Shown here piece after piece: positions 15,077-44,400 of a stretch of 64,000 nt of DNA. How positions within the stretch are numbered: position 1 is the stretch's first letter; every line of letters starts with the position of its first letter. The position numbers and the translations under genes are program-made. The stretch lies in the NCBI GenBank assembly GCA_028522875.1, contig GCA_028522875.1_3659.1, one strand, 5' to 3'. The notes beneath the pieces were generated by a model. It was not told where the DNA came from and ran no database searches. It was given only the letters and a program-made list of their open reading frames with translations. The stretch is from a phage.

Positions 15077-16633
15077 GTGTCCAAAAAGAACCGCAGGAAA
15101 CACAACGCCACAGCCAAAACTGTGAATAAATCTGGGAACGCAGGCGCACCAACTCATAATGTTCGTATGAGTGAGATCGGTTCTGGCGCACTTTCCCAAA
15201 TTATGGCAGAATCGCAATCTATGATGGTTGAGGAATTGCGTTGGCCTCAGCTGATTGCCACAGTGGAGACTATGAAATGTGATTCCACAGTTGCTACTGC
15301 CTTAGATACAAAATATGTTTTCATCACGAAAGCATTCAATGATTTTAAGATCCTTTATAATGTTAAAAGTGAAGACTCTAAGAAAGCTGCCGAGCTTATA
15401 GAGTATTCTTTGCGTAATTTGGCAAACCAACAAACTCTTCGAGATATTGCAAGAAGCGCAGCTACCTTTAACGAGTATGGTTTTTCACTGTTTGAGAAAG
15501 TATACCGCAGAGAAAAAGAAGGTAAATATGCCGGGATGCTCCTTATCGATAAAATTGCATTCCGACCTCAGGCCAGCCTGTCCAGATCAGAGCCGTTTGT
15601 TTTTGATAAGAATAGCAGAACACTGACAGGTATTTATCAGTCACCTAATGCATTTCTAAACACTCAGAATGCACGCTGGGCTGGACCTCTTGCTGCAATG
15701 CCTTCAAAAGGCTTTAATGAGCCTGAAATTTTCATCCCTGCTAAAAAGCTTATGCTCATGACCCTGTCAGGAACAGAATCTAACCCTGCAGGTGTGTCAC
15801 CTATGATAGGTTGCTACAGATCTTTCCGTGAGAAAGTTCTGATTGAAAACCTTGAGGTTGTTGGCTGTTCCAAAGACCTTGGTGGCGTGCTTGAGCTGAA
15901 AATTCCTTCCAATATTTTGAACAAGGCCAGCATTGACCCGAATTCAATGGAAGGGAGAATGGTTGCAGACCTTATGCTTGACGCAGCAAACGCCCATAGT
16001 GGTGAGCAAAGTTTCTTTATACTTCCGTCTGATAGAGATAAGTCTGGTAAAGAGCTTTACTCCATGACCCTGAAGGGGGTTGACGGTATGGGTAAGCAGT
16101 ATTCCACTAAAGATTTGATTGATGCCCGTAAGAAGGCGATTCTTGACCGTTTCGGTGCTGGCTTTATTAACCTCGGTAACGATAACGTTGGATCCTTCTC
16201 TCTGTCCGAGTCAAAACAGTCTATCCATGGTCATTTTGTTCAGCGTGATATAGATATTATCACTGAGGCCTTCAATAAAGATCTTATTCCACAGCTTCTG
16301 GCATTGAATGGTATCATCCTTGAAGATGATGATATGCCTAAACTGAAACCTGGTCTGATTGAAGAAGTGGACATGGAGAGCTTCTCCAAGTTTGTCCAGA
16401 GGATCGGTGCTGTAGGTTACTTGCCAAAAACTCCTGCAGTAATTAATAAGATTCTTGAAGTAGGCGGGTTTGATGAAAGATTTGACGAGGACATGGATCA
16501 GGAAGAGCTGATGAAGCTCTTGGGCCAGGACATCAGTAGGGCTGGTGATGGAATGGCTGCAGGATCCACTGGTAACGGCACTTCTAAGATGTCATCAACC
16601 AGAGATAATTCCATATCCAACATGGAAAATTAA
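15077..16633 (+). CDS. putative portal protein
   Basis: 518 aa; GTG start behind GAGGGG RBS; position directly after terminase and size typical of portal proteins; no motif-level confirmation. Confidence 0.5.
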   Translation: MSKKNRRKHNATAKTVNKSGNAGAPTHNVRMSEIGSGALSQIMAESQSMMVEELRWPQLIATVETMKCDSTVATALDTKYVFITKAFNDFKILYNVKSEDSKKAAELIEYSLRNLANQQTLRDIARSAATFNEYGFSLFEKVYRREKEGKYAGMLLIDKIAFRPQASLSRSEPFVFDKNSRTLTGIYQSPNAFLNTQNARWAGPLAAMPSKGFNEPEIFIPAKKLMLMTLSGTESNPAGVSPMIGCYRSFREKVLIENLEVVGCSKDLGGVLELKIPSNILNKASIDPNSMEGRMVADLMLDAANAHSGEQSFFILPSDRDKSGKELYSMTLKGVDGMGKQYSTKDLIDARKKAILDRFGAGFINLGNDNVGSFSLSESKQSIHGHFVQRDIDIITEAFNKDLIPQLLALNGIILEDDDMPKLKPGLIEEVDMESFSKFVQRIGAVGYLPKTPAVINKILEVGGFDERFDEDMDQEELMKLLGQDISRAGDGMAAGSTGNGTSKMSSTRDNSISNMEN

Positions 16634-18495: not shown

Positions 18496-18541
18496 TCCTA
18501 GATCTTTGGGAAACAAATTTTAAAGTTATTTGGAGAAAATA

Positions 18542-19546
18542 ATGCGTAAAGATGATTTTGGTATTGTTGATTTAGGTGCTACTCTTGAACTGGTTCCGCG
18601 CCAATATCGCCTGATCACTGGTATGGATCTGTTTGAAACCCATCTCGGCACCTCAACAATCGCACAGATCGAACGTGTTGATGAAGTGGTTGGTGATATC
18701 GCCGCTCGCCGTCGTGGTGGTGAACGTAACTACGTTGATAGCGAACGTGCACAGATCAAAAACCTGAACATCCCGTTCTTCCCGCTGGATAAGGGTATTA
18801 CTGCTGCGGACGTTCAGAACTTTCGTCGCTACTTCACCCCAGATGCACCGAAAACTGTGCAAGACGTGGTTACTCGTGTAGTTCGTCGTATTCGTCTGAG
18901 CCACGAAACCCTGCGTGAAAAAGCTCTTTTTTCTGCAATTCTGGGTAAATCCTATGCACCTGGTGACAAAACTTGCCAGTATGACTATTACACGCTGTGG
19001 GGCGTTTCTCAGAAATCTATCGAAATCGATCCTAAAAATGCAGCACAGGACCCGATGGAAGTAATCGAAGATGCACGTCTGCACATTGCTCTGCAGGCTG
19101 GTGACAACGCTGGTGCTTATAACATCATCGCGCTGTGCTCTCCGAAATTCTTCTCTGCACTGGTTCATCACCCACTGGTAGAGCTGGCCTACACCTACTA
19201 CAGCTCTTCTCAGGAACCGCTGCGTCGTCGTCTGGGTGCAGGTGGCGAACAAAGCATTTACCGTGTGTTTGAACACAAGGGTATGACCTTTATCGAAGAT
19301 ATTTCTGGCAACATTCCGGACGGTGAGGCTCGCCTGATGCCTATGGGTATCGATCAGATGTTCCAGCTGCACTTTGCCCCGGCTGACACTGTGGAAGATG
19401 CAAATACCCCAGCTCAAGAGCTGTATATGTGGTATAAACACTCTGCCTACCTGAGAGAACAGAAAATCGAATCTGAAACCTCTATGCTGGCAGTTAACAC
19501 CCGTCCAGAGCTGGTTGTTAAAGCAACTCTGAAAGGTGGTGACTAA
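18542..19546 (+). CDS. putative major capsid protein
   Basis: about 334 aa from ATG 18542 behind GGAGAA RBS; position after scaffold; highly biased optimal codons (CTG, CGT, GGT, AAC); followed by strong terminator. Confidence 0.6.
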   Translation: MRKDDFGIVDLGATLELVPRQYRLITGMDLFETHLGTSTIAQIERVDEVVGDIAARRRGGERNYVDSERAQIKNLNIPFFPLDKGITAADVQNFRRYFTPDAPKTVQDVVTRVVRRIRLSHETLREKALFSAILGKSYAPGDKTCQYDYYTLWGVSQKSIEIDPKNAAQDPMEVIEDARLHIALQAGDNAGAYNIIALCSPKFFSALVHHPLVELAYTYYSSSQEPLRRRLGAGGEQSIYRVFEHKGMTFIEDISGNIPDGEARLMPMGIDQMFQLHFAPADTVEDANTPAQELYMWYKHSAYLREQKIESETSMLAVNTRPELVVKATLKGGD

Positions 19547-21168: not shown

Positions 21169-21197
21169 TTGCTTTTGATGTATCTTTGTGGTAAAAT
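21169..21197 (+). promoter_or_regulatory. promoter TTGCTT-N17-TAAAAT with TGg extended -10
   Basis: -35 TTGCTT 21169-21174, -10 TAAAAT 21192-21197 preceded by TGG. Confidence 0.45.
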
Positions 21198-21215
21198 ACA
21201 TTAGTGAGGGATATA

Positions 21216-21674
21216 ATGCTAAAGGTTAAATGTCAAACAAGGTTCAACCTAAAGCGTTTAGATCGCTTCTACAAAGAACTTGTGAGACTTGAAAGTAAAA
21301 CAATAACCTACGGCTTTTATGACGAACCTCACCCGTCAGGCTTAAATATGGCAACATTGGCAGCCATTCACAACTTCGGTTGGAACGGGCTTCCTGTTCG
21401 CAATTTCATGGAGACAGCCTTTGCATTTCACAACACTCAACTACAGACCTTGACAGAAAAATTGTTGAGAGCTATGGCTAGAGGATCAAGTGCAGAGGCT
21501 ATTCTTAAGCAGATGGGGGACACAGGGGCCAAAGCTATCCAGTTTGTTATTGAGGCTGGTCAGTTTAGTAATCCTACTGTTAGTGAGCAGTGGGCACAAG
21601 AAAAGGGATTCAACGAGGCTATGCGGCATTACGATGTGCTGCTTGAATCTGCAACCTTTAAAATCGGACAGTAA
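21216..21674 (+). CDS. putative head-tail connector/completion protein
   Basis: ATG 21216 behind GTGAGGG; position between head and tail genes. Confidence 0.3.
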   Translation: MLKVKCQTRFNLKRLDRFYKELVRLESKTITYGFYDEPHPSGLNMATLAAIHNFGWNGLPVRNFMETAFAFHNTQLQTLTEKLLRAMARGSSAEAILKQMGDTGAKAIQFVIEAGQFSNPTVSEQWAQEKGFNEAMRHYDVLLESATFKIGQ

Positions 21675-21689
21675 AAATAAGGGGGTTGA

Positions 21690-22115
21690 GTGGCAGCAGG
21701 TTATAAGCTGATAGGAAAGAACAGACTAATACCTCGTAAAACATTCAAAGGTCGCCACAGAGTGTATAACAAAACAGTTGGCGGTCCTTTTGTCAACGAG
21801 GGGTTAGAGCTTGAGTATGAAGAGTTTGATGTCTTAGAGTGTGTTGTGCAGCCGTTGACAGGAAGGGCAGCTAAAGATTACTCCTCTCAAATAAACCCTG
21901 AAGGTGACAGACAGTACGAGGCTTTTACAGTTTACTCTTCAACCAAGTTGTATAGTCCGAACGAAGGAACATATGCAATGGCTGACCAAATTCAGCTGCC
22001 TGACATCCGTGGTGACTTGAAATGGTTTACCGTTTTAAAATGCGATGCATATGTTACCTCCGGCGGCGGGAGATATAGATTTTTTGTGGTAGAAGAGCCT
22101 GAAGGAGAGAACTGA
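21690..22115 (+). CDS. putative tail completion/neck protein
   Basis: 141 aa; GTG start behind AAGGGGG RBS; position only. Confidence 0.3.
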   Translation: MAAGYKLIGKNRLIPRKTFKGRHRVYNKTVGGPFVNEGLELEYEEFDVLECVVQPLTGRAAKDYSSQINPEGDRQYEAFTVYSSTKLYSPNEGTYAMADQIQLPDIRGDLKWFTVLKCDAYVTSGGGRYRFFVVEEPEGEN

Positions 22116-22666
22116 TGGAAGCTTTCGAAAAAGTTTTTTCTGATCTTGAAACAACCATTGCCAAGCTCGTCAAGGTTGCCACAGGAAGAACTGTAGTTCT
22201 GGCAGAAAGCTCTACCATACCGAAGCCGGAAGGTGAGTTTGTACTTTTACAAACCTTAGCGATCAATCCCGCCACTTGGGAAGATAATGAATTTCAAGAT
22301 GCGGAGGGTAATGCTTACGTCACCCACAGCTACACTGTTACTTATCTATTAACAGCTTATCGTGGCAGGGCATATGCTGCACTTAGCAGAGTATTGCAAG
22401 CAATAAACCTTCCAATGTTTTATGACAAGTATTTCCCTCTGGGATCGTGCTTTGCCTACTCTAACAATTCAACAATCTCACCTCAAAGAGTGCCGTTGAA
22501 TAAGCAGACGTATGAAAATAGAGCCACTGTGATGCTGACATTTAACGTAAGGTTTGTTGAAACAGACATTGGGGCTTTTGAGGATCTTCAGGGAATTAAG
22601 GCTGAAATAACCACACACTTCCCTTCACCCAATTCTGGTAAAGCGGTTACAGACAGTGGTCAGTAA
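22115..22666 (+). CDS. putative tail-associated protein
   Basis: 183 aa; start overlaps upstream stop (ATGA-type coupling); position only. Confidence 0.3.
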   Translation: MEAFEKVFSDLETTIAKLVKVATGRTVVLAESSTIPKPEGEFVLLQTLAINPATWEDNEFQDAEGNAYVTHSYTVTYLLTAYRGRAYAALSRVLQAINLPMFYDKYFPLGSCFAYSNNSTISPQRVPLNKQTYENRATVMLTFNVRFVETDIGAFEDLQGIKAEITTHFPSPNSGKAVTDSGQ

Positions 22667-22681
22667 TCGTTATAATTGTGT

Positions 22682-22698
22682 AGTGTAATGATTACACT
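22682..22698. promoter_or_regulatory. perfect 17-bp palindrome AGTGTAAT-G-ATTACACT upstream of major tail gene
   Basis: 8-bp inverted arms around a central G, about 40 bp upstream of ATG 22739, just downstream of a TATAAT hexamer (22670-22676). Confidence 0.4.
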
Positions 22699-22738
22699 GC
22701 GTGTTTGATATCCGTGCACAGATATTAAGAGGAAACAA

Positions 22739-24115
22739 ATGCCATATTTAGATAAAGTGGTAGATGTTACAGTTAACCTCGGAACCCAGCCTATTGACAC
22801 TGTAGGTTTCGAAACTCCCCTGTTCATCGCTATCCACAATAACTTTACTGAGCGAGCTCGCGTATATGCGGAGCTGGATCAGATGGTGGAAGATGGTTTC
22901 GCACAAGGCTCTGCAGCGTATGAGTTTGCAGCAAAAGCTTTTGGTGGTGTATTCCCTCCACAATACGTTATGATCGGCAGACAGGCCAAAGAAAAGACCA
23001 CTGTAGATTTTAAAGGTATTGCTGCCGCAGCTGATACCGATGTCGTAATGACTATTGCAAAAGGTGACTACAATACTGCCTTGATAGTCCCTATCTCTGG
23101 TGGAACAGGGGCAACTCAGATCGCAGAGGCAATGAAGGAAAAAATTGAGGCTGATGATAGCTTAGACGGTATCACCGTGCAGGCCGACGAAGGTGTTATC
23201 ACCATCACTGGTGATTGTACTGTTGGTTATCATACTGGTAATTATACGATCAAAAACATTGCCAATAGTGAAAAACCTTCTACCGTGATCGACAAGATCA
23301 ACGCTGAGCAGGATAATTGGTACTTCTTGTGCCATGAAGACCACACAGATATTGAGGCATGTGCTAAGTGGGCTCAGGCTAACTACAAACTGCATGTCTA
23401 CTCTACTGCAGAAGATGTTACTGGTAAAGACAGCAACATTGCCACTAAACTGAAAGCTGCAAAATATGACAGTGTTGGTATGTACGATCCTCGCGCCGAC
23501 AAAGACTTCCCAGAGGGCGGTATTATCGGAGCTATGGCATCCAACGATCCGTCTTACGGCGACAGCTTACACTTAAAACAGATACCTGGTGTTCTTGCAC
23601 CATCCCTGACCTTGACCCAGCGCATGGCGATTTGGGAGAACAATATTAACTTCTACAGAACAATCAACGGTGTTGGTGCTTTCTGGGAAGGTAAATGTGC
23701 CTCTGGTCAGTATGCAGATGCTATCCGATTCGCTCACTGGGTTAAGTTTAGATCTGAAGAGTCCATGTTTGGATATATGCACCGCCGATCTAATATGGGC
23801 CTGAGCATGAAGATGTCTGATGATGATCTTCCGGTTATTAAGTCTGTCCTGATGAACAACCCAATCAACACTGGCATTAAGAATGGTGCGATCCTGACAG
23901 GTTTCGACGAAGACAATAATGTATTCTACGACCCGATCATCACAGTTCCTAAACGTGCAGAAATTCCAACTAATCAGTTGGCTGCTCGTGTTCTGGAAGG
24001 TGTGAAAGTAGAACTGGTGTATAATAACGCCCTGCACTTCGTTCGTATCCGGATCAACGTCCTTCTGGACAAAGTTGGTTCTAAATCCACCAATGCTGTT
24101 GCAATGACTGAATAA
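22739..24115 (+). CDS. major tail protein, tail sheath-like (contractile-tail assignment tentative)
   Basis: 458 aa; strong AAGAGGAAA RBS; optimal codon usage; followed by 157-aa tube-size gene, chaperone pair and tape measure. Confidence 0.45.
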   Translation: MPYLDKVVDVTVNLGTQPIDTVGFETPLFIAIHNNFTERARVYAELDQMVEDGFAQGSAAYEFAAKAFGGVFPPQYVMIGRQAKEKTTVDFKGIAAAADTDVVMTIAKGDYNTALIVPISGGTGATQIAEAMKEKIEADDSLDGITVQADEGVITITGDCTVGYHTGNYTIKNIANSEKPSTVIDKINAEQDNWYFLCHEDHTDIEACAKWAQANYKLHVYSTAEDVTGKDSNIATKLKAAKYDSVGMYDPRADKDFPEGGIIGAMASNDPSYGDSLHLKQIPGVLAPSLTLTQRMAIWENNINFYRTINGVGAFWEGKCASGQYADAIRFAHWVKFRSEESMFGYMHRRSNMGLSMKMSDDDLPVIKSVLMNNPINTGIKNGAILTGFDEDNNVFYDPIITVPKRAEIPTNQLAARVLEGVKVELVYNNALHFVRIRINVLLDKVGSKSTNAVAMTE

Positions 24116-24125
24116 GGAAGCCTAG

Positions 24126-24599
24126 ATGGAAACTCAAATTTTAACTCCTTATGCGTATGACCCTAAAAAGGTCAAACTGTATCTGATGCAGCAGCGTGTC
24201 ACTGGCTTCGCTGCTGACACCAAGATTGTTGTTTCAAGAAACGAAGACAACATTTATCCTCACGTCGGTGTGGATGGTGAAATGTCTGCGGCTCTGTCCC
24301 GTAACCAATCTGGTGTTATGACTGTGTCTTTGCAGAACACTTCTGTATGGAACGCTTACCTTTCTGACTGGCAGAAACAGGCATCGATTACTGGCCTGGT
24401 ATTCTTCCCGGTTCTGCTGGAAGGTAGCCAGGGCCCCGGTATTTCCACAGTCGGTTGGATCCAGAAACAGCCTGACCTGACTTACGGAACAGAAGTAGGT
24501 CAACTGGACTGGGATATCGGTATTCTGGATGCATGGCTCAACCGTGATAACATTACTGGTGCTCTCACTGGCCTCGCAGGTCTTGCAGGTATTATCTAA
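24126..24599 (+). CDS. putative tail tube protein
   Basis: 157 aa; AAGGAAG RBS; position between sheath-like gene and chaperone; followed by terminator. Confidence 0.4.
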   Translation: METQILTPYAYDPKKVKLYLMQQRVTGFAADTKIVVSRNEDNIYPHVGVDGEMSAALSRNQSGVMTVSLQNTSVWNAYLSDWQKQASITGLVFFPVLLEGSQGPGISTVGWIQKQPDLTYGTEVGQLDWDIGILDAWLNRDNITGALTGLAGLAGII

Positions 24600-24614: not shown

Positions 24615-24649
24615 TAAGCCTCACCTTAGGGTGGGGCTTTTTGCTTTTT
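24615..24649 (+). terminator. intrinsic terminator after tail tube gene
   Basis: AAGCCTCACC-TTAG-GGTGGGGCTT followed by TTTGCTTTTT. Confidence 0.65.
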
Positions 24650-34955: not shown

Positions 34956-34990
34956 CATAGGGGGCTGTTTGCCCCCTTTCAGGAGAAAGA

Positions 34991-37900
34991 ATGGCTGATA
35001 TTAAAGTTGTCAGAATTGAATCTCTTCCTGCCACTACCGCAGTGACAGAGGATGATTACCTGGTTGTTCAACAACCAGACCTGACTCGTCGTGTAAAAAT
35101 TGGCGATGTTGTCCATGTGGATGGGACTGTTTCTCATGTAATCTCCTTTAAGGAAGGTGGTAAGTTAAACGGCCCAATGGATTTTGCCTACTTCGAAGAG
35201 GAAGACCTCTACCTGCGTTGGAAAGGCGAATTTCCGCACACCGTTCCTGCACTATCTTCACCGTACTCCGATGGTGGGATTACTGATGCTGCATGGATGG
35301 TATATACAGATCCATCATTAAGAGAGGAGCTGGAATCAACTATTGGCGCATCCATGATTATGACAGCTGAAGGTCAGTCTGTCCAGGATGTAATGGATGT
35401 TACAGTTAAGACCGCCAACGATGCTAAAGCACTTGCACAGCGGGTAGATTTTGGTACCGTGCACACTGTAGGCGATGTTATTCACCTTGTCAATTTTGTT
35501 GGCCCTGCAGTTATTGAAGAGGGAAGAACTACTAACTACCCTTCCGTAGCAGCTGGTGAAAAATTCCTGAACGGTGTGGTATCTCGTCGTGATACTACAA
35601 CTGTTGATGGTATTTTCCGTGGCGCTACCTCCGGAGCTATGTATACCATTGCAGTAACCAACGGTGTAGCAACAACAAAAAGAATAGCACTTCGTGATGA
35701 ATTTAAACGCCTAGAGGCAAACAACCCAACAAGAACCGTTATTCGTGCTGGTGATGATGTAAACACAGCCGGGTACTTGCAGCTTGATGCAACAGGTCGT
35801 TGGGGCATGTGGAACCAACAGACATCTTCATGGCAACCTCTTGCTATAGAGCAAGGTGGTACAGGTGCCAGAGATGCCGCAGGTGCACGTATTAATTTAG
35901 GAGCTTTTTATAAACAACGTGCAGCCCTTGAGGCAAATTTCAATATTAACAATTTGACTGGCAATCAGGATGGTGTATACTACCAGCCCATGACTGCCAA
36001 TGCCACCGAGGCAAATGGTTACCCAGCAGGTTCTGGTGCTGGTCACCTGATTGTTTGGCAGAACAATGCTAACGGCGGTGCAGGTTGTCGTCAGGAATAC
36101 TATCCATTCTCTAACGTAGATGTTTGGTATTTGAGAACCTATCAGGCCAACACAAATCAGTGGACTGCATGGCAGCCGATGGTCAGACCTCGTAACGATG
36201 ATACCTTCAGATCTCATATCGGCCTTGGTAAAAACAACTCACCAGCCTTCGGGCACCTTTACTTAGCTCAATACTCTGGAGATGTTAAATCTGCCTCAGG
36301 TATTCTCCATGGAGATAAATATAATACTGATGGTGTTCTTGAGCATGGTTATAGGATCTACTCTGAGGTAAGAAACGACAATAAGGCTTGGTTGACAATC
36401 CACCTGCACAAAGGTGCAAAAGGATCTGAAACCCATAGATATTTAGGTTTCCGCGAAGACGGCGTGCTAGACTGCCCTAAATATATGCAGGTTGGGGATC
36501 TTACTGGTCAGCTGACAAACTGGGGACTCGGAGAGTGGATCCGTAGTTCAGGAGCAGAAAGAGGCTTCTGGGGATCCAAGAAAGCCGCCAAGATGGTCAT
36601 CTGGGATGGTGGGATGGATGAATCCGGTAACGGCACTCTGGAATGGGGTGTTTATAACAACCGGAAGGCCAAGTGGGAACCTTTACCGCAAGCCGCAGGT
36701 GGTACTGGAGCTACAACTTTGGCAGAGGCTCAGAATCTGTTTAGAGTTCCTATAGCTGCAGGCGTAAAAGATTTCTTAACGCTGCCAAGAACCGCAGGGA
36801 TGGAAGATGGGAAATACTACCCGATTATAGTTAGAACAGATCCGTATTATGCTCCAACTACTGGCACCGATATTACCATAGTTACTAGGTCGTCATCTGG
36901 TGGTGACCCCATGAACTGTGCTACCTTACAGTGTCATTATAGAACTGGTGGGTGGACAGATAGAGGGGACTCTTTCTACGGAGTAGTAAATTTCTACCAG
37001 AATGAAAAAGCAATTCTTGGGATGGTTGCTCCAACAAGGGGTAAACAAGAATATGTTGCTTTCTATGCAGAGGCGCGTGCTTTCCCTGTCAGCATATACG
37101 CAAGTAGAAATGTTTTAGAGGTGTTTACCAAAGAACAAGACTACCAGGTTGGTTCTGTAACAAACAATCAGGACGGTGTTAAGTTTTGTGCTCCGTTAGA
37201 GTCAGCAGACTTAAATCTTGCGATAAAGGGTGATAATGTAACTAATACCAGACCTCTTGCGGAGTTTAAAGGAACATCAGGTTTTTACACAGGCGGTGGT
37301 ACTCAGTGGCACTACATCGGCACACCTGAACGCTATGCGGTGATGAGTAAAATGACCATGCCTAAAGTTGAGCTATGGGCAGATGGTATCGACTACCTAT
37401 GCCCTGGTAGTCAGACCACAAGGAAAGCACTGTTCTCTAATGCTGGATTCCAGGCAGCATCTGAAGGTACAGAGGACTTAATTAACAACACATTTACTTC
37501 CAAATGCGGCAAGGGTGCAGGTCTGAAAGGCCAGTCAGAGTTCAGGTCTACCCCAGAGGCTGGACAGGTAATTGTCAGAGATGTTGTTGGTTCCGCACAT
37601 AAGTTCTTTAACTTCAACAAAGACGGCACATTCTACCCTCCTGGCGGTTATGTTTGCCAGACAGGTGCGGATTGGAACAATCAGTTTGGTAACACAAACC
37701 CGTCAAAAATAATGGCTGGTAATGTTAACGGACCTGAAGGTTCCATGGTTGTAGCAGGGTTGTCGGTTGGTTTTTCTGGAAATTATGCATTCCAGATGGC
37801 TGGTCGTCTTGATCAGTTATACACCAGGTCTATTGAGGGTGGTAATCATAGAGCGTGGAACAAGGTAATCCAACACCGTGGTCAAGGCTTGGGTAATAGC

Positions 37901-39436
37901 AATCTTAATGATTACAAAGCTGATCGTGAAGGTATTTATCATCAAGAGGCAAACTCTAACGCCACAGCCGAAAGAAATTACCCGCCTGGGCAGCAGATGG
38001 CTGGTACATTGATTGTACTCAGAAACTCTGCTAACGAGGGCACGGGCTGTATTCAGATCTACAAGATGTACCTTGGTGGAACATGGGAAAGGTATTATAA
38101 TAACACTGGTAGTGGAATGGCTTGGAGTCCTTGGAAGAGAACAAGCTTCCCGGAAAGCACAACCGCCCCAGTTATGCCTGATCTTTGGTTACCTTTGACC
38201 TCCAACTTAAAACCTGCACTTGGCGAGGGTGAGATGGTATTCTCCAGACCATCTACAGCAACATACTTTTCTAAACGTGGTGTGATGGTTACTGCCCAGA
38301 ACGATCAGCCTAGGTTTGAAAGAGATGGTCTGCTTATCGAAGGGCAAAGGACAAACCTGATGCTTAACAGTGAAGACCCGAGTAAATGGGGAGCCAGTCA
38401 ACAGATTACTGTTGGTGGTACTGTAACAAACACTAACGGCACAAAAGGTGCAAGATTTACAGTAAACACTGCATCCGGTGTGGAAACAACAGCGTTAAAC
38501 CTTGCTACAGTTCCAGCCACCAGAGGTGCCGATGTAACAGGTGCTGAGAAATTCTGTACTGGGTCTATTATTGCAAGGGGAGGTAAAGCGAACCAGAGAT
38601 TACGTGTAAGATTCGACATGTATGACGGATCCACCACAGTATTCCAAGGTGACGCTTATGTTAACCTGTCAACACTTGAAGTTAAAACAACAGGTGGTGC
38701 AGCTGGGGGAATTAAAGTAAAAGCTGAGAGATGGCAAACAGCTGGACCTGCTTGGGTAAGGATTGCCGCTACGTTTGAGGCAGTGGCCTCTGACAAGAAT
38801 ATCGGGTGCCAGTTCCAGATTTCTCCACCTGAAGGTGCTCAGCATGTTGTAGGAGATTGGGTTGATGTTGCAATACCTCAATTTGAGCTAGGTTCTTGCG
38901 AGTCCTCGTTTATTCCCACAGGGTCTTCACCTGTAACTAGAGCGGCAGATCTTTGCAAATTTCCGATGACTGATAACTTAGCACCTAGACCGTTCACTAT
39001 TGCCGCTACTGTGGATGCTAACTGGAGAGGTTGGGGAAAAGCTCCTAACGCAGCCCCTAGGGTTATAGACACAGAAGGACACCAGTCGGGCGCACCTTTT
39101 ATCCTCGGGTTTGGTTCTGCAACAAATATTGCAGAGGATGGGTATCCATATTGTGATATAGGAGGATCTAACCGTAGGGTGTATGAGATGTGTAAGGTAC
39201 GTAAGTTAAGAATGGGGTTCAGAATAAAAGATGATGGTAAAACATGTTCTTTTGCTAATGGATTGATTAGCTCTGAAACGCAATCTTCTTGGGAGTTTCT
39301 TGCAGGAGGGGCTTTTATCAGGATAGGTGGTCAAACAGCATCTGGTGAAAGACACCTGTTCGGGCACATTAAGGATATCAAGCTTTGGAACTCGTCTTTG
39401 ACCGATACGCAACTTATGATGGAGAATATTGAATAA
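34991..39436 (+). CDS. long tail fibre protein (1481 aa)
   Basis: Size; N-terminal anchor domain shared with 31688 ORF; Gly/Thr/Asn-rich beta-rich composition; GGAGAAAG RBS. Confidence 0.55.
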   Translation: MADIKVVRIESLPATTAVTEDDYLVVQQPDLTRRVKIGDVVHVDGTVSHVISFKEGGKLNGPMDFAYFEEEDLYLRWKGEFPHTVPALSSPYSDGGITDAAWMVYTDPSLREELESTIGASMIMTAEGQSVQDVMDVTVKTANDAKALAQRVDFGTVHTVGDVIHLVNFVGPAVIEEGRTTNYPSVAAGEKFLNGVVSRRDTTTVDGIFRGATSGAMYTIAVTNGVATTKRIALRDEFKRLEANNPTRTVIRAGDDVNTAGYLQLDATGRWGMWNQQTSSWQPLAIEQGGTGARDAAGARINLGAFYKQRAALEANFNINNLTGNQDGVYYQPMTANATEANGYPAGSGAGHLIVWQNNANGGAGCRQEYYPFSNVDVWYLRTYQANTNQWTAWQPMVRPRNDDTFRSHIGLGKNNSPAFGHLYLAQYSGDVKSASGILHGDKYNTDGVLEHGYRIYSEVRNDNKAWLTIHLHKGAKGSETHRYLGFREDGVLDCPKYMQVGDLTGQLTNWGLGEWIRSSGAERGFWGSKKAAKMVIWDGGMDESGNGTLEWGVYNNRKAKWEPLPQAAGGTGATTLAEAQNLFRVPIAAGVKDFLTLPRTAGMEDGKYYPIIVRTDPYYAPTTGTDITIVTRSSSGGDPMNCATLQCHYRTGGWTDRGDSFYGVVNFYQNEKAILGMVAPTRGKQEYVAFYAEARAFPVSIYASRNVLEVFTKEQDYQVGSVTNNQDGVKFCAPLESADLNLAIKGDNVTNTRPLAEFKGTSGFYTGGGTQWHYIGTPERYAVMSKMTMPKVELWADGIDYLCPGSQTTRKALFSNAGFQAASEGTEDLINNTFTSKCGKGAGLKGQSEFRSTPEAGQVIVRDVVGSAHKFFNFNKDGTFYPPGGYVCQTGADWNNQFGNTNPSKIMAGNVNGPEGSMVVAGLSVGFSGNYAFQMAGRLDQLYTRSIEGGNHRAWNKVIQHRGQGLGNSNLNDYKADREGIYHQEANSNATAERNYPPGQQMAGTLIVLRNSANEGTGCIQIYKMYLGGTWERYYNNTGSGMAWSPWKRTSFPESTTAPVMPDLWLPLTSNLKPALGEGEMVFSRPSTATYFSKRGVMVTAQNDQPRFERDGLLIEGQRTNLMLNSEDPSKWGASQQITVGGTVTNTNGTKGARFTVNTASGVETTALNLATVPATRGADVTGAEKFCTGSIIARGGKANQRLRVRFDMYDGSTTVFQGDAYVNLSTLEVKTTGGAAGGIKVKAERWQTAGPAWVRIAATFEAVASDKNIGCQFQISPPEGAQHVVGDWVDVAIPQFELGSCESSFIPTGSSPVTRAADLCKFPMTDNLAPRPFTIAATVDANWRGWGKAPNAAPRVIDTEGHQSGAPFILGFGSATNIAEDGYPYCDIGGSNRRVYEMCKVRKLRMGFRIKDDGKTCSFANGLISSETQSSWEFLAGGAFIRIGGQTASGERHLFGHIKDIKLWNSSLTDTQLMMENIE

Positions 39437-41442: not shown

Positions 41443-44400
41443 ATGCCTATTGCGTTGGTGGACTCCATCGTATCCTCTGCAAGGTCTTCAAGTTACGACT
41501 GGAATGCTTCAAAAGCTGCTCTTGCTGACAGTTTAAACACGGTGACAACAAGAACGCTTGATAAGATTTTTGAAGGTAACAGAGCTTACCGTGGTCAACA
41601 AGAAAGAAAGCAACTATTAAGATCATCTGCCGCCCCTTGCACTGTGGTGTACGGAGAAACAAGATCCTCCGGTCTGCTATCTTTTGTTGAGCAAGATAGC
41701 AGCAAAACACTGCATACAGCAATTGTTCTTGCAAGTCATCCGTTGGAAAGTGTAACAGATATTCTTATTGATGGCAATCCAATCTCTAAGTACGGAGATC
41801 TTGTAAGCTATGAGATTCACAATGACCCTAAGGTAGCAGATCAGTACATGAGGCAGCATTGCCCGTCTTGGTCTGTAGACATGATAGGCAGAGGACTGTG
41901 CTGGATCAGGGTTAGTTTTAAATTTGACCCAAACAAATTTCCATTCGGCCTTCCTAATGTTACAGTTCTTAAAAAGGGTAAAAAGGTTTACGATCCTCGA
42001 ACAGGGAAAAATGTATACTCAAACAACGCAGCTTTGATTATCCTTGACTATCTGAGAGTTTACCTTAAATGCCCTGATAGTACTATAAACTGGGAATCGT
42101 TTAAAGAGGCCGCAAATATCTGTGACGAGATGGTGCAGAATGCTGACGGGACCAGCGAAAGAAGGTACACCATAAACGGAGAGTTTGACATGGATGAACC
42201 CCCAGCAAACATAATGACAGAAATGCTGAAAGCTTGCGGTGGTGATCTTTGTTATGTTGCTGGTAAGTACGGCCTTTTAGTTGGTGCATATTATGGACCT
42301 GCAAGATACAGGCTTGGAGAAGAATGCGTTTCAGGTGAGGTTAAGATATACCCTGAAGCGTCTTTCGATAAAAGATCTAATACAATCACGGGTAGATTCA
42401 TAAGCCCTGCAAAAGGGTATTCTGAGACAGACTTTCCTTCTGTTTTTGTCCCAGAGTGGGTGGAAAAGGACAAAGAGAGAAAAGTAGTAGATATCGATTA
42501 CAGGTTCGTAACAAGTCCGTATCAGGCCCAAAGAATTTCTGCAATCTTCTTAAGACGTGCCAGAGCTGGTAGGATTATCGAAGTTACGTGCAATATGAGA
42601 GGGTTCAAGTTTAAACCTGGTCATTATGTAACCATAGATCTGCCAAGTATTGGTGTTGTTGGTCAAGAGATGAGGGTGCTTGAGTGGGAATTTACAAAGA
42701 AAGGTGGCGTTAAGGTAAAACTACGCCAAGATGCTAAGGAGTGGAATGACGCAACAGGTCAACTCCCAGATTCTGGTGACATAGATATTCCGGTCTCTCC
42801 GTCAGGTGTTGCACAACCTCAAAATTTTAGATACTCTGTACTACAGGCTGGAGAGCTAACTCACGGCGTTTTAGCTTGGGACAACGTTGGTGCTTACGCT
42901 TATAACATTGTTCAGGTTAAGAAGAATGGTGAAATAGTCTGGACAGCACAGACTGTCGAGCAGTTTGTGAGGGTTGAGGGTCTTACCCAGGGGTCATACA
43001 CAGCCACGGTGGTAGCAACATCGTACAAAGGTGGGGTTTCTCCTGAAGCTTATTGCGAGTTCAATATTCAGGCACCAGAACCACCTGCATCTGTAGAGGT
43101 TAAGCAGGGGTATTTTGCAATCACACTTATACCTCACAGCAGAGACCTGGCGAGTGTTAGTACTCAGTACGATTTCTGGACTTCAGGCACAACACGGCTT
43201 GCAAGTACAGCCAACAATATTGTTGAGACACAAGCAACTCGAATGGGTATAGGATCCACTTGGACCTCGGAGGGTTTGCAAAACGATAAAACCTATTACT
43301 GGTATATCAGGACAACAAATGCTTTTGGTTCATCTGCTTTTGTGGAGTGTGCAGCCCACTGTTACACATCCATAGAAGATCTTATGCCACAGATCGATGC
43401 TGAGTTCAAAAAGACAGAGACTTACAAAGAGCTTACCGCCAATCTCGATAATGCAGTCAAGGAAATGGATAAAAATGTTGGTGCAGTCAATGACCGTGTT
43501 ACTAGCATTTTTGAAGAGCTTGGTGATACAATAGAGGGTGTTGTCAGAGAGACGACAGAAAAATTTACAGGGGTTAATGGAGAAATTTCTGCCCTTAACA
43601 GTAAGCTGGTAGCAGCTCAGCAATCCTTTGACGATAAACTTGCAGCAGAGTCTGGTAGGCTTGGGTCACTAATCGAGACAACAAATAGATCAACCGTTGA
43701 TCTTGTTAATCGTAAAACTCAAGCATTGAGTGAGCAAATAACTGCAACTCAAGGTACTCTGCGGGAAGAGTTGAAGAACACTGAGAGCAAACTTAACTCC
43801 TCTATTCAAGAAACCAACAAGGCAACAACCGATCTGCTAAATAAGACTACGGAAGCTATTAAGCAGGATCTGGTGGCGGCTACAGGGAAGATTACCAAGC
43901 TGGAAGATGATGTGCAGAAAGAGGTTGCCAATCTGCAAGCATCTATTCAAGAAACTAATAGTACAACAGTTGATCTTGTTAATAATACAGCCACAGCGAT
44001 CCGTCAAGAACTTACCTCTGCAAAACAAGAAATTGTTGACGAAATGGGTAATATTGATGAGCTTAGGGCTACAGTATCTAATACCTCTAAAGCTGTAACA
44101 ACACTTGAGGGTAAAATAGATGCTCAGTGGGGAGCTAAGATTCAGGTTGACAGTCATGGTAATAAATATGTTGCAGGTATCCAGCTGGGCATGGAGGGGT
44201 CTGGGGGACAAGTTCAATCATACTTCATGGTTAGTGCAAACAACTTTGCGGTATACAACCCCGGAAACGGAACAGCAACCCTTGCTTTCGCAATCAAGAA
44301 CAACCAAGCGTTCTTGAAAGACGCTTTTATAGAGAATGGCACGATCTCCTCTGCCAAGATTGCACAAGAAATTTCGTCAAACAACTACGATGGCAACGGG

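What the first reader, a model, noticed from the sequence alone, without database searches (positions are those of the whole stretch)
22682..22698. Perfect 17-bp palindrome immediately upstream of the major tail (sheath-like) gene
AGTGTAAT-G-ATTACACT lies about 40 bp upstream of the ATG at 22739 and just downstream of a TATAAT hexamer. A perfect 8+1+8 palindrome at this position suggests a dimeric regulator binding site or an RNA hairpin affecting expression of the most abundant tail protein.
Basis: seen in the sequence. Interest (0 to 1): 0.4.

Follow-up and report, generated by a model that had tools for sequence, protein, structure and literature searches.

The report
Conserved RNA hairpin before phage sheath gene
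The 17-base palindrome is real and is most likely a conserved RNA hairpin at the front of the tail sheath-tube message of an rV5-like coliphage, probably helping that message to last or be processed; this is a useful but fairly ordinary kind of phage gene-expression signal, not a repressor-binding site.

Summary
The window is an rV5-like coliphage (Vequintavirus, closest to LL12). AGTGTAATgATTACACT sits exactly at 22682-22698, 5 nt after a TATAAT and 40 nt before the sheath ATG.

**Chance:** an 8+1+8 palindrome is expected about 1.3 times per 64 kb, and it has no second copy in the 136-kb genome. Its reality rests on position and conservation.

**Conservation:**
- The intergenic region is identical in 116 of 117 Vequintavirus records, although the flanks differ by 1-7%.
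- A sister lineage keeps the hairpin through one compensatory T:A to C:G change and wobble-compatible changes. It loses both the TATAAT and the DNA symmetry.
- 21 leader variants across the subfamily carry a hairpin at this position, with visibly different stem sequences.
- The + strand folds far better than the - strand.

**Reading:** it is hairpin B' of a three-hairpin leader (A' 22642-22671, B' 22680-22700, D' 22706-22727). This is the only sizeable untranslated gap between the low-copy neck/terminator genes and the high-copy sheath-tube genes.

**Best guess (inferred):** a 5'-edge stabiliser or processing boundary for the sheath-tube mRNA. The DNA-operator and terminator readings are poorly supported. 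No Rfam family or publication describes it. Interest is modest.

The parts
21169..21197 (+). Nearest upstream late-type promoter of the unit: TTGCTT, 17-nt spacer, TGGTAAAAT extended -10. It is the homologue of rV5 P056.
   Evidence: The regex and sequence match the rV5 late motif TGGTAAAATA and the P056 sequence in Table S4 of PMC3606486.
22115..22666 (+). Tail/neck terminator protein gene. It is a low-copy virion protein and the last gene before the gap.
   Evidence: PF23961, E 7.7e-21; phrog_4528.
22642..22671 (+). Hairpin A': 12 pairs with loop AGUG. Its 3' arm contains the stop codon TAA at 22664-22666.
   Evidence: It appears in the MFE and centroid folds. Alone it folds at -11.3 kcal/mol, z -4.98. 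It is kept in the sister lineage with one C-G to U.G change. It is the only part weakly matched by the covariance model of the other genera (12 bits, E 0.11, the top hit in 4 kb).
22669..22679 (+). AU-rich single-stranded linker UUAUAAUUGUG, which contains the TATAAT hexamer at 22671-22676. It is a candidate RNase E site and/or a -10 element.
   Evidence: Sequence. It is unpaired in the folds. TATAAT becomes TATAGT in phiWec191, the only variant in the 86-nt stretch 22660-22745 among 117 records. It is replaced by UUCUCCAU in the sister lineage. Seunaviruses and henunaviruses have UAUAA-, UAUAG- or UAUC-type linkers, and certreviruses have CAAGAC-type linkers.
22680..22700 (+). Hairpin B': 9-bp stem with UGA loop. 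The reported palindrome 22682-22698 is its core, and it extends to 22677-22703 if G.U pairs are counted.
   Evidence: One search gives -9.9 kcal/mol and z -3.4 on the + strand, against -5.2 kcal/mol on the - strand. RNAalifold keeps 9/9 pairs with 1 compensatory and 2 one-sided changes. Simulation gives P = 0.013.
22706..22727 (+). Hairpin D': UGAUAUC, loop CGUGCACA, GAUAUUA. It ends 1 nt before the Shine-Dalgarno GAGG.
   Evidence: It appears in the centroid fold. Alone it folds at -5.5 kcal/mol, z -2.9. In the sister lineage, read by eye from the sequences (RNAalifold, did not predict this helix): G.U becomes A-U, and U-A becomes U.G in the outermost pair of the 9-pair fold, one pair outside the 22706-22727 stem; both keep pairing.
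22729..22741 (+). Shine-Dalgarno GAGG (22729-22732) and the sheath start codon ATG (22739-22741).
   Evidence: The ribosome-binding site is annotated at the same place in LL12 and Murica.
22739..24115 (+). Tail sheath gene (high-copy protein).
   Evidence: phrog_205, E 2e-117. It is 99.3% identical to the LL12 sheath.
24126..24599 (+). Tail tube-like structural protein gene (high-copy).
   Evidence: PF11681 KPP10_Orf10. It is annotated as tail tube protein in rV5_ev147 and other records.
24616..24639 (+). Strong intrinsic terminator closing the unit. It is the homologue of rV5 t052.
   Evidence: 10-bp stem with 6 GC pairs, followed by TTTGCTTTTT. rV5 Table S4 lists t052.

Best explanation
The palindrome is the core of an RNA hairpin (B', 22680-22700) in the untranslated leader of the sheath-tube message. 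The leader has three hairpins (A', B', D'). It fills the only sizeable untranslated gap inside a late transcription unit that runs from the late promoter near 21190 to the terminator at 24616-24639. The gap separates genes for low-copy neck, head-completion and tail-terminator proteins from genes for the two most abundant tail proteins. I propose that B' lies at, or within a few nucleotides of, the 5' end of a roughly 1.96-kb sheath-tube mRNA. That end could arise by endonucleolytic (RNase E-type) cleavage in the AU-rich linker between A' and B'. It could also arise by initiation from the TATAAT, which would start transcription at A22682 or G22683, the first bases of the palindrome. A base-paired 5' end hinders 5'-end-dependent decay. 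Together with the terminator hairpin at the 3' end, this would give a long-lived bicistronic message and a high sheath/tube yield relative to the upstream genes. A' would likewise cap the 3' end of the upstream fragment. Shown here: the sequence, its conservation, the RNA-type and strand-specific pattern of substitutions, and the gene context. Inferred: that the site is transcribed as part of the late unit, that a 5' end forms there, and that stability is the property affected.
For: 1. Position: it lies in a 72-nt gap between the tail-terminator gene and the sheath gene. This is the only late-region gap of 40 nt or more for which the rV5 paper lists neither a promoter nor a terminator.
2. Purifying selection: the 86 nt around the gap are identical in 116 of 117 Vequintavirus records, while the surrounding 1.2 kb is 93-99% identical. 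Among 10 genomes there are 313 variable columns in 1806, about 12.5 per 72 nt, but only 1 in 22664-22735.
3. RNA-type substitutions: the sister lineage (L028/L071/L091, sheath 70% identical) keeps 9/9 core pairs with one T:A to C:G double change, one U.G to U-A change and one G-C to G.U change, and the loop is unchanged. Random substitution gives this with P = 0.013. Lineage L035/L073 has a different hairpin in the same place with an A-U to G-C compensatory change.
4. All 21 listed leader variants across Vequintavirinae carry a hairpin here, with visibly different stem sequences. On a model-based alignment of 17 leaders, 94.7% of cells are paired against 35-51% in slid controls, and 5 of 6 pairs of helix B show double changes.
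5. Strand specificity: the + strand RNA folds at -28.9 kcal/mol (z -2.8) and the - strand at -17.4 (z -0.7). G.U pairs are conserved in helix A; they would be A.C mismatches on the other strand.
6. Geometry: an AU-rich unpaired linker lies between two hairpins, a TATAAT-derived start would coincide with the first base of the palindrome, and a strong terminator closes the unit after the tube gene.
Against: There is no expression, 5'-end or half-life data for any Vequintavirus. Only two or three distinct sequence types exist for the Vequintavirus-type hairpin, so the direct covariation evidence is thin. The extended 12-pair version gives only P = 0.07. Homology of B' with the GC-rich hairpin B of other genera is positional only: the covariance model scores the window leader at 12 bits, E 0.11, and misaligns B'. 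Some lineages lack hairpin B (L040/L083, L078), and mydoviruses lack the whole leader, so the element is dispensable. Complete invariance of loops and linkers within Vequintavirus suggests sequence-specific constraints beyond a simple stability hairpin, or else a recent sweep. At -9.9 kcal/mol the hairpin is not very stable. RNase E motifs carry too little information to be evidence.
Confidence: 0.45

Rival explanations
1. Internal sigma-70-type promoter with a DNA operator. TATAAT (22671-22676) is the -10 element, and the palindrome, spanning about +1 to +17, binds a dimeric phage or host regulator that gates sheath transcription.
For: The -10 hexamer is perfect and has a G at -14. The palindrome sits where a repressor would block initiation. 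The whole gap is invariant in Vequintavirus. Predicted late promoters P056 and P055 already form a staircase upstream, so a third promoter would fit that design.
Against: There is no -35 element within 16-18 nt (best 3/6), and the consensus scan did not list the site. It matches the phage's own late motif TGGTAAAATA at only 7/10 positions and was not found by the rV5 authors. The TATAAT is absent from the sister lineage and other genera, while the hairpin persists. DNA dyad symmetry is broken by a G.T in the sister lineage, and the extension of the stem relies on G.T pairs. There is no other copy or excess of half-sites in 136 kb. The single natural variant hits the TATAAT (TATAGT) without apparent consequence.
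Confidence: 0.1
2. RNA operator for an RNA-binding protein. A phage or host protein recognises hairpin B' (and/or A' and D') sequence-specifically and represses or activates sheath translation, in the manner of MS2 coat protein or T4 RegA and gp32 autoregulation.
For: Loops and linkers, not only stems, are invariant in 116/117 genomes. The loop and the top of the stem, GUAAUGAUUA, are identical in the sister lineage. Hairpin A has a strongly conserved sequence across genera.
Against: Hairpin B stems in other genera are unrelated in sequence and carry generic stable tetraloops (UUCG, GCAA, GUAA). This argues for a physical rather than a sequence-read role. The distance from B to the ribosome-binding site ranges from about 2 to about 70 nt. 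No candidate protein has been identified.
Confidence: 0.12
3. Passive structural insulator. The hairpins keep the untranslated gap folded so that Rho cannot load, or they uncouple sheath translation from ribosomes terminating at the upstream stop codon. They have no role in mRNA ends.
For: A' contains the upstream stop codon, and in certreviruses hairpin B contains it. The gap is otherwise long enough to expose naked RNA. The hairpins have variable sequence and variable position.
Against: Seventy-two nucleotides is short for Rho loading. Mydoviruses manage with a 32-nt unstructured gap. This reading does not explain the sequence invariance.
Confidence: 0.1
4. Weak intrinsic terminator or attenuator that reduces read-through into the sheath gene.
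For: The terminator scan lists 22677-22703 as 12 pairs followed by TTTGATATCC. The sister-lineage stem is followed by UUGUUAAU. One certrevirus-like lineage (L048) has a true U-tract after hairpin B.
Against: Only 3 G-C pairs are present, and the base of the stem consists of G.U pairs. The stem folds at -9.9 kcal/mol, against -11.5 to -24.7 for the rV5 terminators. Only three U residues follow before a G. Most other lineages have no U-tract. Terminating before the most needed tail protein makes little sense.
Confidence: 0.05
5. Chance palindrome with no function of its own, hitch-hiking in a conserved ribosome-binding region.
For: About 1.3 such palindromes are expected per 64 kb. It occurs only once in the genome.
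Against: Compensatory and wobble changes occur in the sister lineage. A hairpin is present at the same position in all 21 listed leader variants. The folding shows strand asymmetry.
Confidence: 0.03

Closest known systems
5'-terminal stem-loop mRNA stabilisers (E. coli ompA 5' UTR; T7 gene 10 leader hairpin starting at +1 of the phi10 transcript). Cited from my own knowledge, not tested here.
   Same: It is a short hairpin that would lie at the extreme 5' end of the message for a very abundant structural protein. It has no U-tract. It is followed by an unstructured AU-rich stretch and a strong ribosome-binding site. If TATAAT is used as a -10 element, the start falls on the first base of the stem, as in T7 phi10.
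   Different: No 5' end has been mapped. The hairpin is internal to a longer late transcription unit. The promoter is doubtful. The stem is AU-rich (-9.9 kcal/mol) and weaker than the classical examples.
Intercistronic processing and stability hairpins in polycistronic mRNAs (papBA RNase E processing, malE-malF REP, Rhodobacter puf, filamentous-phage gene VIII mRNAs). Cited from my own knowledge.
   Same: Hairpins flank an AU-rich single-stranded linker between genes whose products are needed in very different amounts. They are conserved as structure rather than as sequence across relatives.
   Different: Cleavage is hypothetical here. In the classical cases the hairpin usually protects the upstream segment from 3' exonucleases. 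Here it is the downstream genes that need the higher expression.
Intrinsic terminators of rV5-like phages (t052, t060 and others; PMC3606486 Table S4).
   Same: It is a hairpin in a late-region intergenic gap on the coding strand, and it was flagged by a simple terminator scan.
   Different: The stem is AU-rich with G.U pairs at its base, and there is no real U-tract. It is weaker than every listed rV5 terminator. The hairpins at the same position in other genera lack U-tracts.
Palindromic operators of dimeric repressors (lac, lambda, LexA-type).
   Same: It shows perfect dyad symmetry of 8+1+8, immediately downstream of a -10-like hexamer.
   Different: It is a single copy. The symmetry is not conserved in relatives. 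The substitutions follow RNA pairing rules. The -10-like hexamer is not conserved.
The three-hairpin sheath leader of Seuna-, Avuna-, Henuna- and Certrevirus found here (alignment A4, model R1). It is not in Rfam.
   Same: It occupies the same position between the tail-terminator and sheath genes. The order is the same: hairpin A at or near the upstream stop codon, then a short AU-rich linker, then hairpin B. The ribosome-binding region AAGAGGAAAC is the same.
   Different: The window lineage lacks hairpin C and the downstream GGTCAATAAC strand of the alternative helix. Its hairpin B is long and AU-rich rather than a 5-6 bp GC stem with a tetraloop. The model match is not significant (12 bits, E 0.11).

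Membership tests
Rho-independent (intrinsic) terminator | A stable, G+C-rich stem whose base directly abuts the U-tract | tested here: not met
   Only 3 G-C pairs in 12. The four outermost pairs include G.U pairs. The stem folds at -9.9 kcal/mol, against -11.5 to -24.7 for rV5 terminators.
Rho-independent (intrinsic) terminator | A run of at least 4-5 U residues immediately after the stem | tested here: not met
   The tail is UUUGAUAUCC, with three U residues before a G. Most equivalent hairpins in other lineages have no U-tract.
Sigma-70 promoter | -10 hexamer close to TATAAT | tested here: met
   TATAAT at 22671-22676. It is TATAGT in one of 117 records.
Sigma-70 promoter | -35 hexamer close to TTGACA at 16-18 nt, or a full TGn extended -10 | tested here: not met
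   The best -35 candidate is 3/6 at 17 nt. GTTACA occurs only at a 19-nt spacing. The bases upstream of the -10 are CGT, not TGn. The site is not listed by the scan.
rV5-type late promoter (TGGTAAAATA motif, PMC3606486) | Match to the TGGTAAAATA motif upstream of a late gene | tested here: not met
   cGtTAtAATt matches 7/10 positions. The site is not among the eight MEME sites or the 33 promoters of rV5. The regex TGnTAnAAT finds the other late gaps but not this one.
Palindromic DNA operator of a dimeric regulator | Dyad symmetry maintained at the DNA level in relatives | tested here: not met
   The sister lineage has G.T in place of G-C within the core. The extension relies on G.T pairs. Other genera have unrelated stems.
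Palindromic DNA operator of a dimeric regulator | Further copies or half-sites in the genome (a regulon), or a cognate regulator | tested here: not met
   No other copy with up to 4 mismatches in 136 kb (only two non-palindromic 4-mismatch chance hits). There are 6 half-sites against 4.2 expected. A single-site operator cannot be excluded, and no regulator was sought.
Conserved cis-acting RNA hairpin | Base pairs kept through compensatory and wobble changes | tested here: met
   9/9 pairs are kept with 1 double and 2 single changes (P = 0.013). The L035/L073 lineage shows an A-U to G-C change. Helix B in other genera has 5 of 6 pairs with double changes. Only 2-3 sequence types bear directly on B'.
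Conserved cis-acting RNA hairpin | Strand-specific stability on the transcribed strand | tested here: met
   The + strand folds at -28.9 kcal/mol (z -2.79) and the - strand at -17.4 (z -0.72). B' alone folds at -9.9 against -5.2.
5'-terminal stem-loop mRNA stabiliser (ompA / T7 gene 10 type) | The hairpin begins within about 0-4 nt of the mRNA 5' end | not testable with these tools
   No 5'-end data exist for any Vequintavirus. The geometry is compatible with the TATAAT and with the AU-rich linker.
5'-terminal stem-loop mRNA stabiliser (ompA / T7 gene 10 type) | The hairpin lengthens mRNA half-life | not testable with these tools
   This requires rifampicin chase experiments with stem mutants.
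RNase III processing site (T7 R-sites) | About 20 bp or more of mostly continuous double-stranded RNA | tested here: not met
   The stems are 9-12 bp (B'), 12 bp (A') and 7-9 bp (D').
Any described RNA family (Rfam 15) | A match to a covariance model at or near its gathering score | tested here: not met
   There is no hit in 22600-22750 at E <= 1, and none in the equivalent leaders of six related loci.
   Window 22643-22741 is the top hit in 4 kb, but at only 12 bits, E 0.11, and B' is misaligned. The sister lineage scores 14.6 bits, E 1.2.

The most novel reading that the evidence does not exclude
The palindrome is the Vequintavirus version of an undescribed, subfamily-wide cis-regulatory RNA in front of the tail sheath gene. 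In the other genera this leader has three covarying hairpins. It also has a mutually exclusive helix: the 5' arm of hairpin A pairs perfectly with GGTCAATAAC downstream of hairpin C, and the two conformers are mostly within 0-6 kcal/mol of each other. This is the architecture of a bistable RNA switch. Such a switch might couple translation of the upstream tail-terminator gene, RNase processing or a phage factor to production of sheath and tube, and so act as a checkpoint on tail-assembly stoichiometry.
Probability: 0.15. Interest if true: 0.6.

Novelty: new member of a known kind. Interest (0 to 1): 0.3.

Why it matters
rV5-like phages are widely isolated and are used as therapeutic and biocontrol candidates, yet their late gene expression is known only from motif predictions. 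If the hairpin marks the 5' edge of a separately stabilised sheath-tube message, it would explain how one late operon delivers hundreds of sheath and tube copies but only a few terminator and neck proteins. It would also give a compact, portable expression element. The wider leader in sister genera is a candidate new structured RNA, testable with simple reporter and 5'-end mapping experiments. If the hairpin is only a generic stability element, the finding is ordinary annotation.

Tried and rejected
1. Further copies of the palindrome. None were found in the window or in the remaining 72 kb of LL12, so a regulon-type operator is rejected.
2. Rfam search of the window region and of six related loci. 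Nothing relevant was found.
3. A covariance model (R1) of the leader of the other genera, used to test homology. The window region is the top local hit but is not significant, and B' is misaligned. Homology of B' with hairpin B is therefore left as positional only.
4. Literature. The rV5 genome paper lists no promoter or terminator at this site. The Certrevirus paper describes only early sigma-70-like promoters. Searches for Vequintavirus transcriptomics or leader hairpins found nothing relevant.
5. Annotations of Murica and LL12 have no feature on the palindrome. The 'terminator' flagged under the Murica match lies inside the upstream gene.
6. The 'promoter' features near the sheath gene of Pseudomonas phage KIL1 lie downstream of that gene and are irrelevant.
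7. An RNase III site is rejected because the stems are too short.
8. The core TAAT-N-ATTA resembles the centre of a Fur box (recalled from memory, about 8 of 14 positions). I judged this generic AT-rich symmetry and did not pursue it.
9. Pairing between the leader and the start of the sheath coding region. The MFE fold pairs 22701-22707 with 22736-22742, but the centroid fold does not, and no informative covariation exists.
10. Nucleotide-level constraint on the first 50 nt of the sheath gene. It is seen within Vequintavirus, but synonymous sites differ in the sister lineage. This is probably protein conservation or a sweep.

Full report
**Identity of the window**

The region 21500-24500 is 98.7% identical to Escherichia phage LL12, and 95-98% identical to Murica, rV5 and more than 100 other Vequintavirus genomes. 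The window runs antiparallel to those records.

The genes around the finding are as follows:

| Coordinates | Product | Evidence |
|---|---|---|
| 18530-19546 | major head protein | phrog_29, PF03864 |
| 21204-21674 | neck / tail-completion protein | phrog_222 |
| 21690-22115 | head-completion protein | PF05521 |
| 22115-22666 | tail/neck terminator protein | PF23961 |
| 22739-24115 | tail sheath | phrog_205, E 2e-117; DUF3383 |
| 24126-24599 | tube-like structural protein | PF11681 |

**The observation**

One search shows AGTGTAATgATTACACT at 22682-22698, exactly as reported. TATAAT lies at 22671-22676, GAGG at 22729-22732 and the ATG at 22739.

By itself the palindrome is not statistically unusual. 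The window holds three perfect 8+1+8 palindromes against 1.3 expected. With spacers of 0-3 nt it holds seven against 4.6 +/- 2.3.

It is unique in the window. It is also unique in the whole genome when the rest of LL12 is added, 136 kb in all, and half-sites occur at chance frequency.

**Transcriptional context**

A greedy ORF map shows the late genes on the + strand from 15077 to 60237, separated by short gaps. The larger gaps hold a strong terminator and/or an extended -10 late promoter of the type TGGTAAAATA. These are the elements listed for rV5 in Table S4 of PMC3606486.

The sheath gap (22667-22738, 72 nt) is the only late-region gap of 40 nt or more for which that paper lists neither. 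The unit appears to run from the P056-like promoter (TTGCTT, 17-nt spacer, TGGTAAAAT at 21169-21197) to the t052-like terminator (24616-24639).

The gap therefore separates low-copy neck and terminator genes from the high-copy sheath and tube genes. Records of Murica and LL12 annotate nothing on the palindrome.

**Conservation within the genus**

An 86-nt query (22660-22745) is at least 99% identical in 116 of 117 Vequintavirus records. All sampled rows were 86/86 identical. The surrounding 1201 nt is mostly 93-99% identical.

In an alignment of ten genomes, 313 of 1806 columns vary, about 12.5 per 72 nt. Only one column varies in 22664-22735 and one in 22736-22807.

The single variant in the gap is TATAAT to TATAGT, in phiWec191. 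The whole gap is therefore a conservation island, not just the palindrome.

**Evidence from relatives that it is an RNA hairpin**

IMG/VR and metagenome contigs yielded a sister lineage (L005-L008, L028, L071, L091) whose sheath is 70% identical and which has no cultured representative. Its gap reads ...CAGTAATCGTTCTCCATGTAGCGTAATGATTATGCTACTTG....
- The TATAAT is gone, but the hairpin remains.
- RNAalifold on the window, phiWec191 and two sister sequences predicts hairpin A' (12 pairs) and hairpin B' (9 pairs).
- In B', one pair changes on both sides (U-A to C-G), two change on one side through wobble (U.G to U-A, G-C to G.U), and none is broken.
- The G-C to G.U change destroys the DNA palindrome but not the RNA helix.
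- Random substitutions reproduce this outcome with P = 0.013 for the 9-pair core. For the 12-pair extended stem the value is only P = 0.07.

A second lineage (L035 and L073, sheath 61-69% identical) has a short gap with a different hairpin, UUAGUU-AGCU-AACUGA against UUGGUU-AGCU-AACCGA. This is an A-U to G-C compensatory change.

**The other genera**

Seuna-, Avuna-, Henuna- and Certrevirus, SSBI34, A7_1 and several metagenomic lineages have a 100-130 nt gap at this position. It contains three hairpins:
- **Hairpin A:** 13 pairs with a conserved sequence and four conserved G.U pairs.
- **Hairpin B:** a 5-6 bp GC stem, mostly capped by UUCG, GCAA or GUAA tetraloops, without a U-tract in all but one lineage.
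- **Hairpin C:** GCAC paired with GUGC.

I built covariance model R1 from 17 such leaders and realigned them to it. In that alignment 94.7% of cells are paired, against 35-51% when the partners are slid. Eight pairs show double changes, five of them among the six pairs of hairpin B.

I listed the element at the B position for 21 distinct leader variants. Every one folds into a hairpin, with visibly different stem sequences.

The palindrome occupies the same position: after hairpin A and a short AU-rich linker. Homology is not proven, however. R1 scores the window leader at only 12 bits (E 0.11). That is the top hit in 4 kb and lies at exactly 22643-22741, but R1 aligns A' and not B'.

Hairpin B is missing in L040/L083 and L078. 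Mydoviruses have a 32-nt unstructured gap. The element is therefore useful but not indispensable.

**Strand and energetics**

| Segment | + strand RNA | - strand RNA |
|---|---|---|
| 22640-22745 | -28.9 kcal/mol, z -2.79, 0 of 200 shuffles as good | -17.4 kcal/mol, z -0.72 |
| B' alone | -9.9 kcal/mol | -5.2 kcal/mol |
| A' alone | -11.3 kcal/mol | -6.1 kcal/mol |

The many conserved G.U pairs would be A.C mismatches on the other strand. The folding entity is therefore the sense RNA of the sheath message. No Rfam family matches the window leader or six related leaders.

**Mechanism**

Shown:
- a conserved, strand-specific RNA hairpin;
- an AU-rich unpaired linker between two hairpins;
- a location at the boundary between low-copy and high-copy genes;
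- a strong terminator after the tube gene.

Inferred: B' ends up at the 5' edge of a sheath-tube mRNA. This could happen by cleavage in the linker UUAUAAUUGUG. It could also happen by initiation from the TATAAT, which would place +1 at A22682 or G22683, the first bases of the palindrome.

In either case B' would protect that message against 5'-end-dependent decay. This is how the ompA and T7 gene 10 leader hairpins work, as I recall from established knowledge. A' would cap the upstream fragment.

I give this specific mechanism about 0.45. I give the more general claim, a cis-acting RNA hairpin acting after transcription initiation, about 0.75.

**Rivals**

- **DNA operator plus promoter.** It lacks a -35 element, a full TG extension, conservation of the -10 and of DNA symmetry, and further copies.
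- **Weak terminator.** It is contradicted by the AU-rich stem with a wobble base, only three U residues, and the lack of U-tracts in most other lineages.
- **RNA-binding-protein operator.** It would explain the invariance of loops and linkers within the genus. It fits poorly with the generic tetraloop hairpins elsewhere.
- **Passive insulator against Rho loading or translational coupling.** It remains possible.
- **Pure chance.** It is disfavoured by the covariation.

**Novelty and verdict**

Hairpins of this kind are a well-known class. This one is undescribed (no annotation, paper or Rfam entry), so it is a new member of a known kind, of modest interest.

The more interesting lead lies outside the window. 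In the other genera, the 5' arm of hairpin A is also perfectly complementary to GGTCAATAAC(T/C)G downstream of hairpin C in nearly all 17 leaders (L043 needs a register shift). Wobble swaps preserve this pairing, and there is one matched change in L043. The two mutually exclusive conformers lie within about 0-6 kcal/mol of each other in most leaders. That architecture looks like a switch and deserves its own study.

Noticed in passing
Loci L015-L020, L031-L033, L038, L040, L043-L052 and L058 (leaders upstream of the sheath ATG; alignment A4): In Seuna-, Avuna-, Henuna- and Certrevirus and related lineages, the 100-130 nt sheath leader has three covarying hairpins. It also has a mutually exclusive helix: the 5' arm of hairpin A (CGGTTATTGAT) pairs with GGTCAATAAC(T/C)G after hairpin C. 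The two conformers lie within about 0-6 kcal/mol of each other in most of the 17 leaders. This may be a bistable RNA switch. It is not in Rfam.
   Followed up: partly
window 14978-15045: A late-type promoter (TTGCCA, 17-nt spacer, TGGTAGAAT, ending at 15006) is followed within about 20 nt by a terminator-like hairpin with a U-tract (15024-15045, homologue of rV5 t064ABC). The first gene of the unit starts only at 15077. A terminator inside a 5' leader suggests attenuation or antitermination control of the head-gene unit.
   Followed up: no
window 22713-22720, and the equivalent position in L028, L031 and L032: The loop of hairpin D' carries a spacer-less DNA-type palindrome that changes in sequence but persists across genera: GTGCAC in the window, TGTGCACA in the sister lineage, CTGTATGTACAG in Seunavirus and CTGTACGTACAG in Avunavirus. 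Such palindromes cannot fold as RNA hairpins with a 0-2 nt loop. This is unexplained.
   Followed up: no
window 22739-22807: Within Vequintavirus the first ~70 nt of the sheath coding sequence (22739-22807) show a single variable column (22789) among ten genomes, so synonymous sites are almost invariant. In the sister lineage, synonymous sites in the same stretch do differ. This may reflect a constraint on translation initiation or a recent recombinational sweep.
   Followed up: partly
window 34960-34976: A GC-rich hairpin, GGGGGC-TGTTT-GCCCCC, followed by only TTT, lies in the 35-nt gap before the 1481-aa gene (34991-39436). It resembles the B-type hairpins of other genera more than a true terminator.
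   Followed up: no
window 9649-10461: A cluster of seven tRNA genes is present (Arg, Tyr, Ser, Thr, Met, Pro). One is a 99-nt ARAGORN call with a four-base anticodon (10118-10216), which may be an intron-containing or aberrant tRNA or a false call.
   Followed up: no
GenBank records MG0656xx: About 17-23 records named 'Campylobacter phage' with host C. jejuni are at least 95% identical to E. coli rV5-like phages across this region. They are likely mislabelled or contaminant genomes.
   Followed up: no
window 35060-35078 and 43687-43703: Two other perfect palindromes, CTGGTTGTTCAACAACCAG and AGATCAACCGTTGATCT, lie inside large tail-gene ORFs. Their number is consistent with chance.
   Followed up: no
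L048 / L089 (certrevirus-like contigs), hairpin B: In this one lineage hairpin B (GGGGC-GTAA-GCCCC) is followed by TTTTCTT, so it looks like a genuine intrinsic terminator. No other lineage examined shows this.
   Followed up: no
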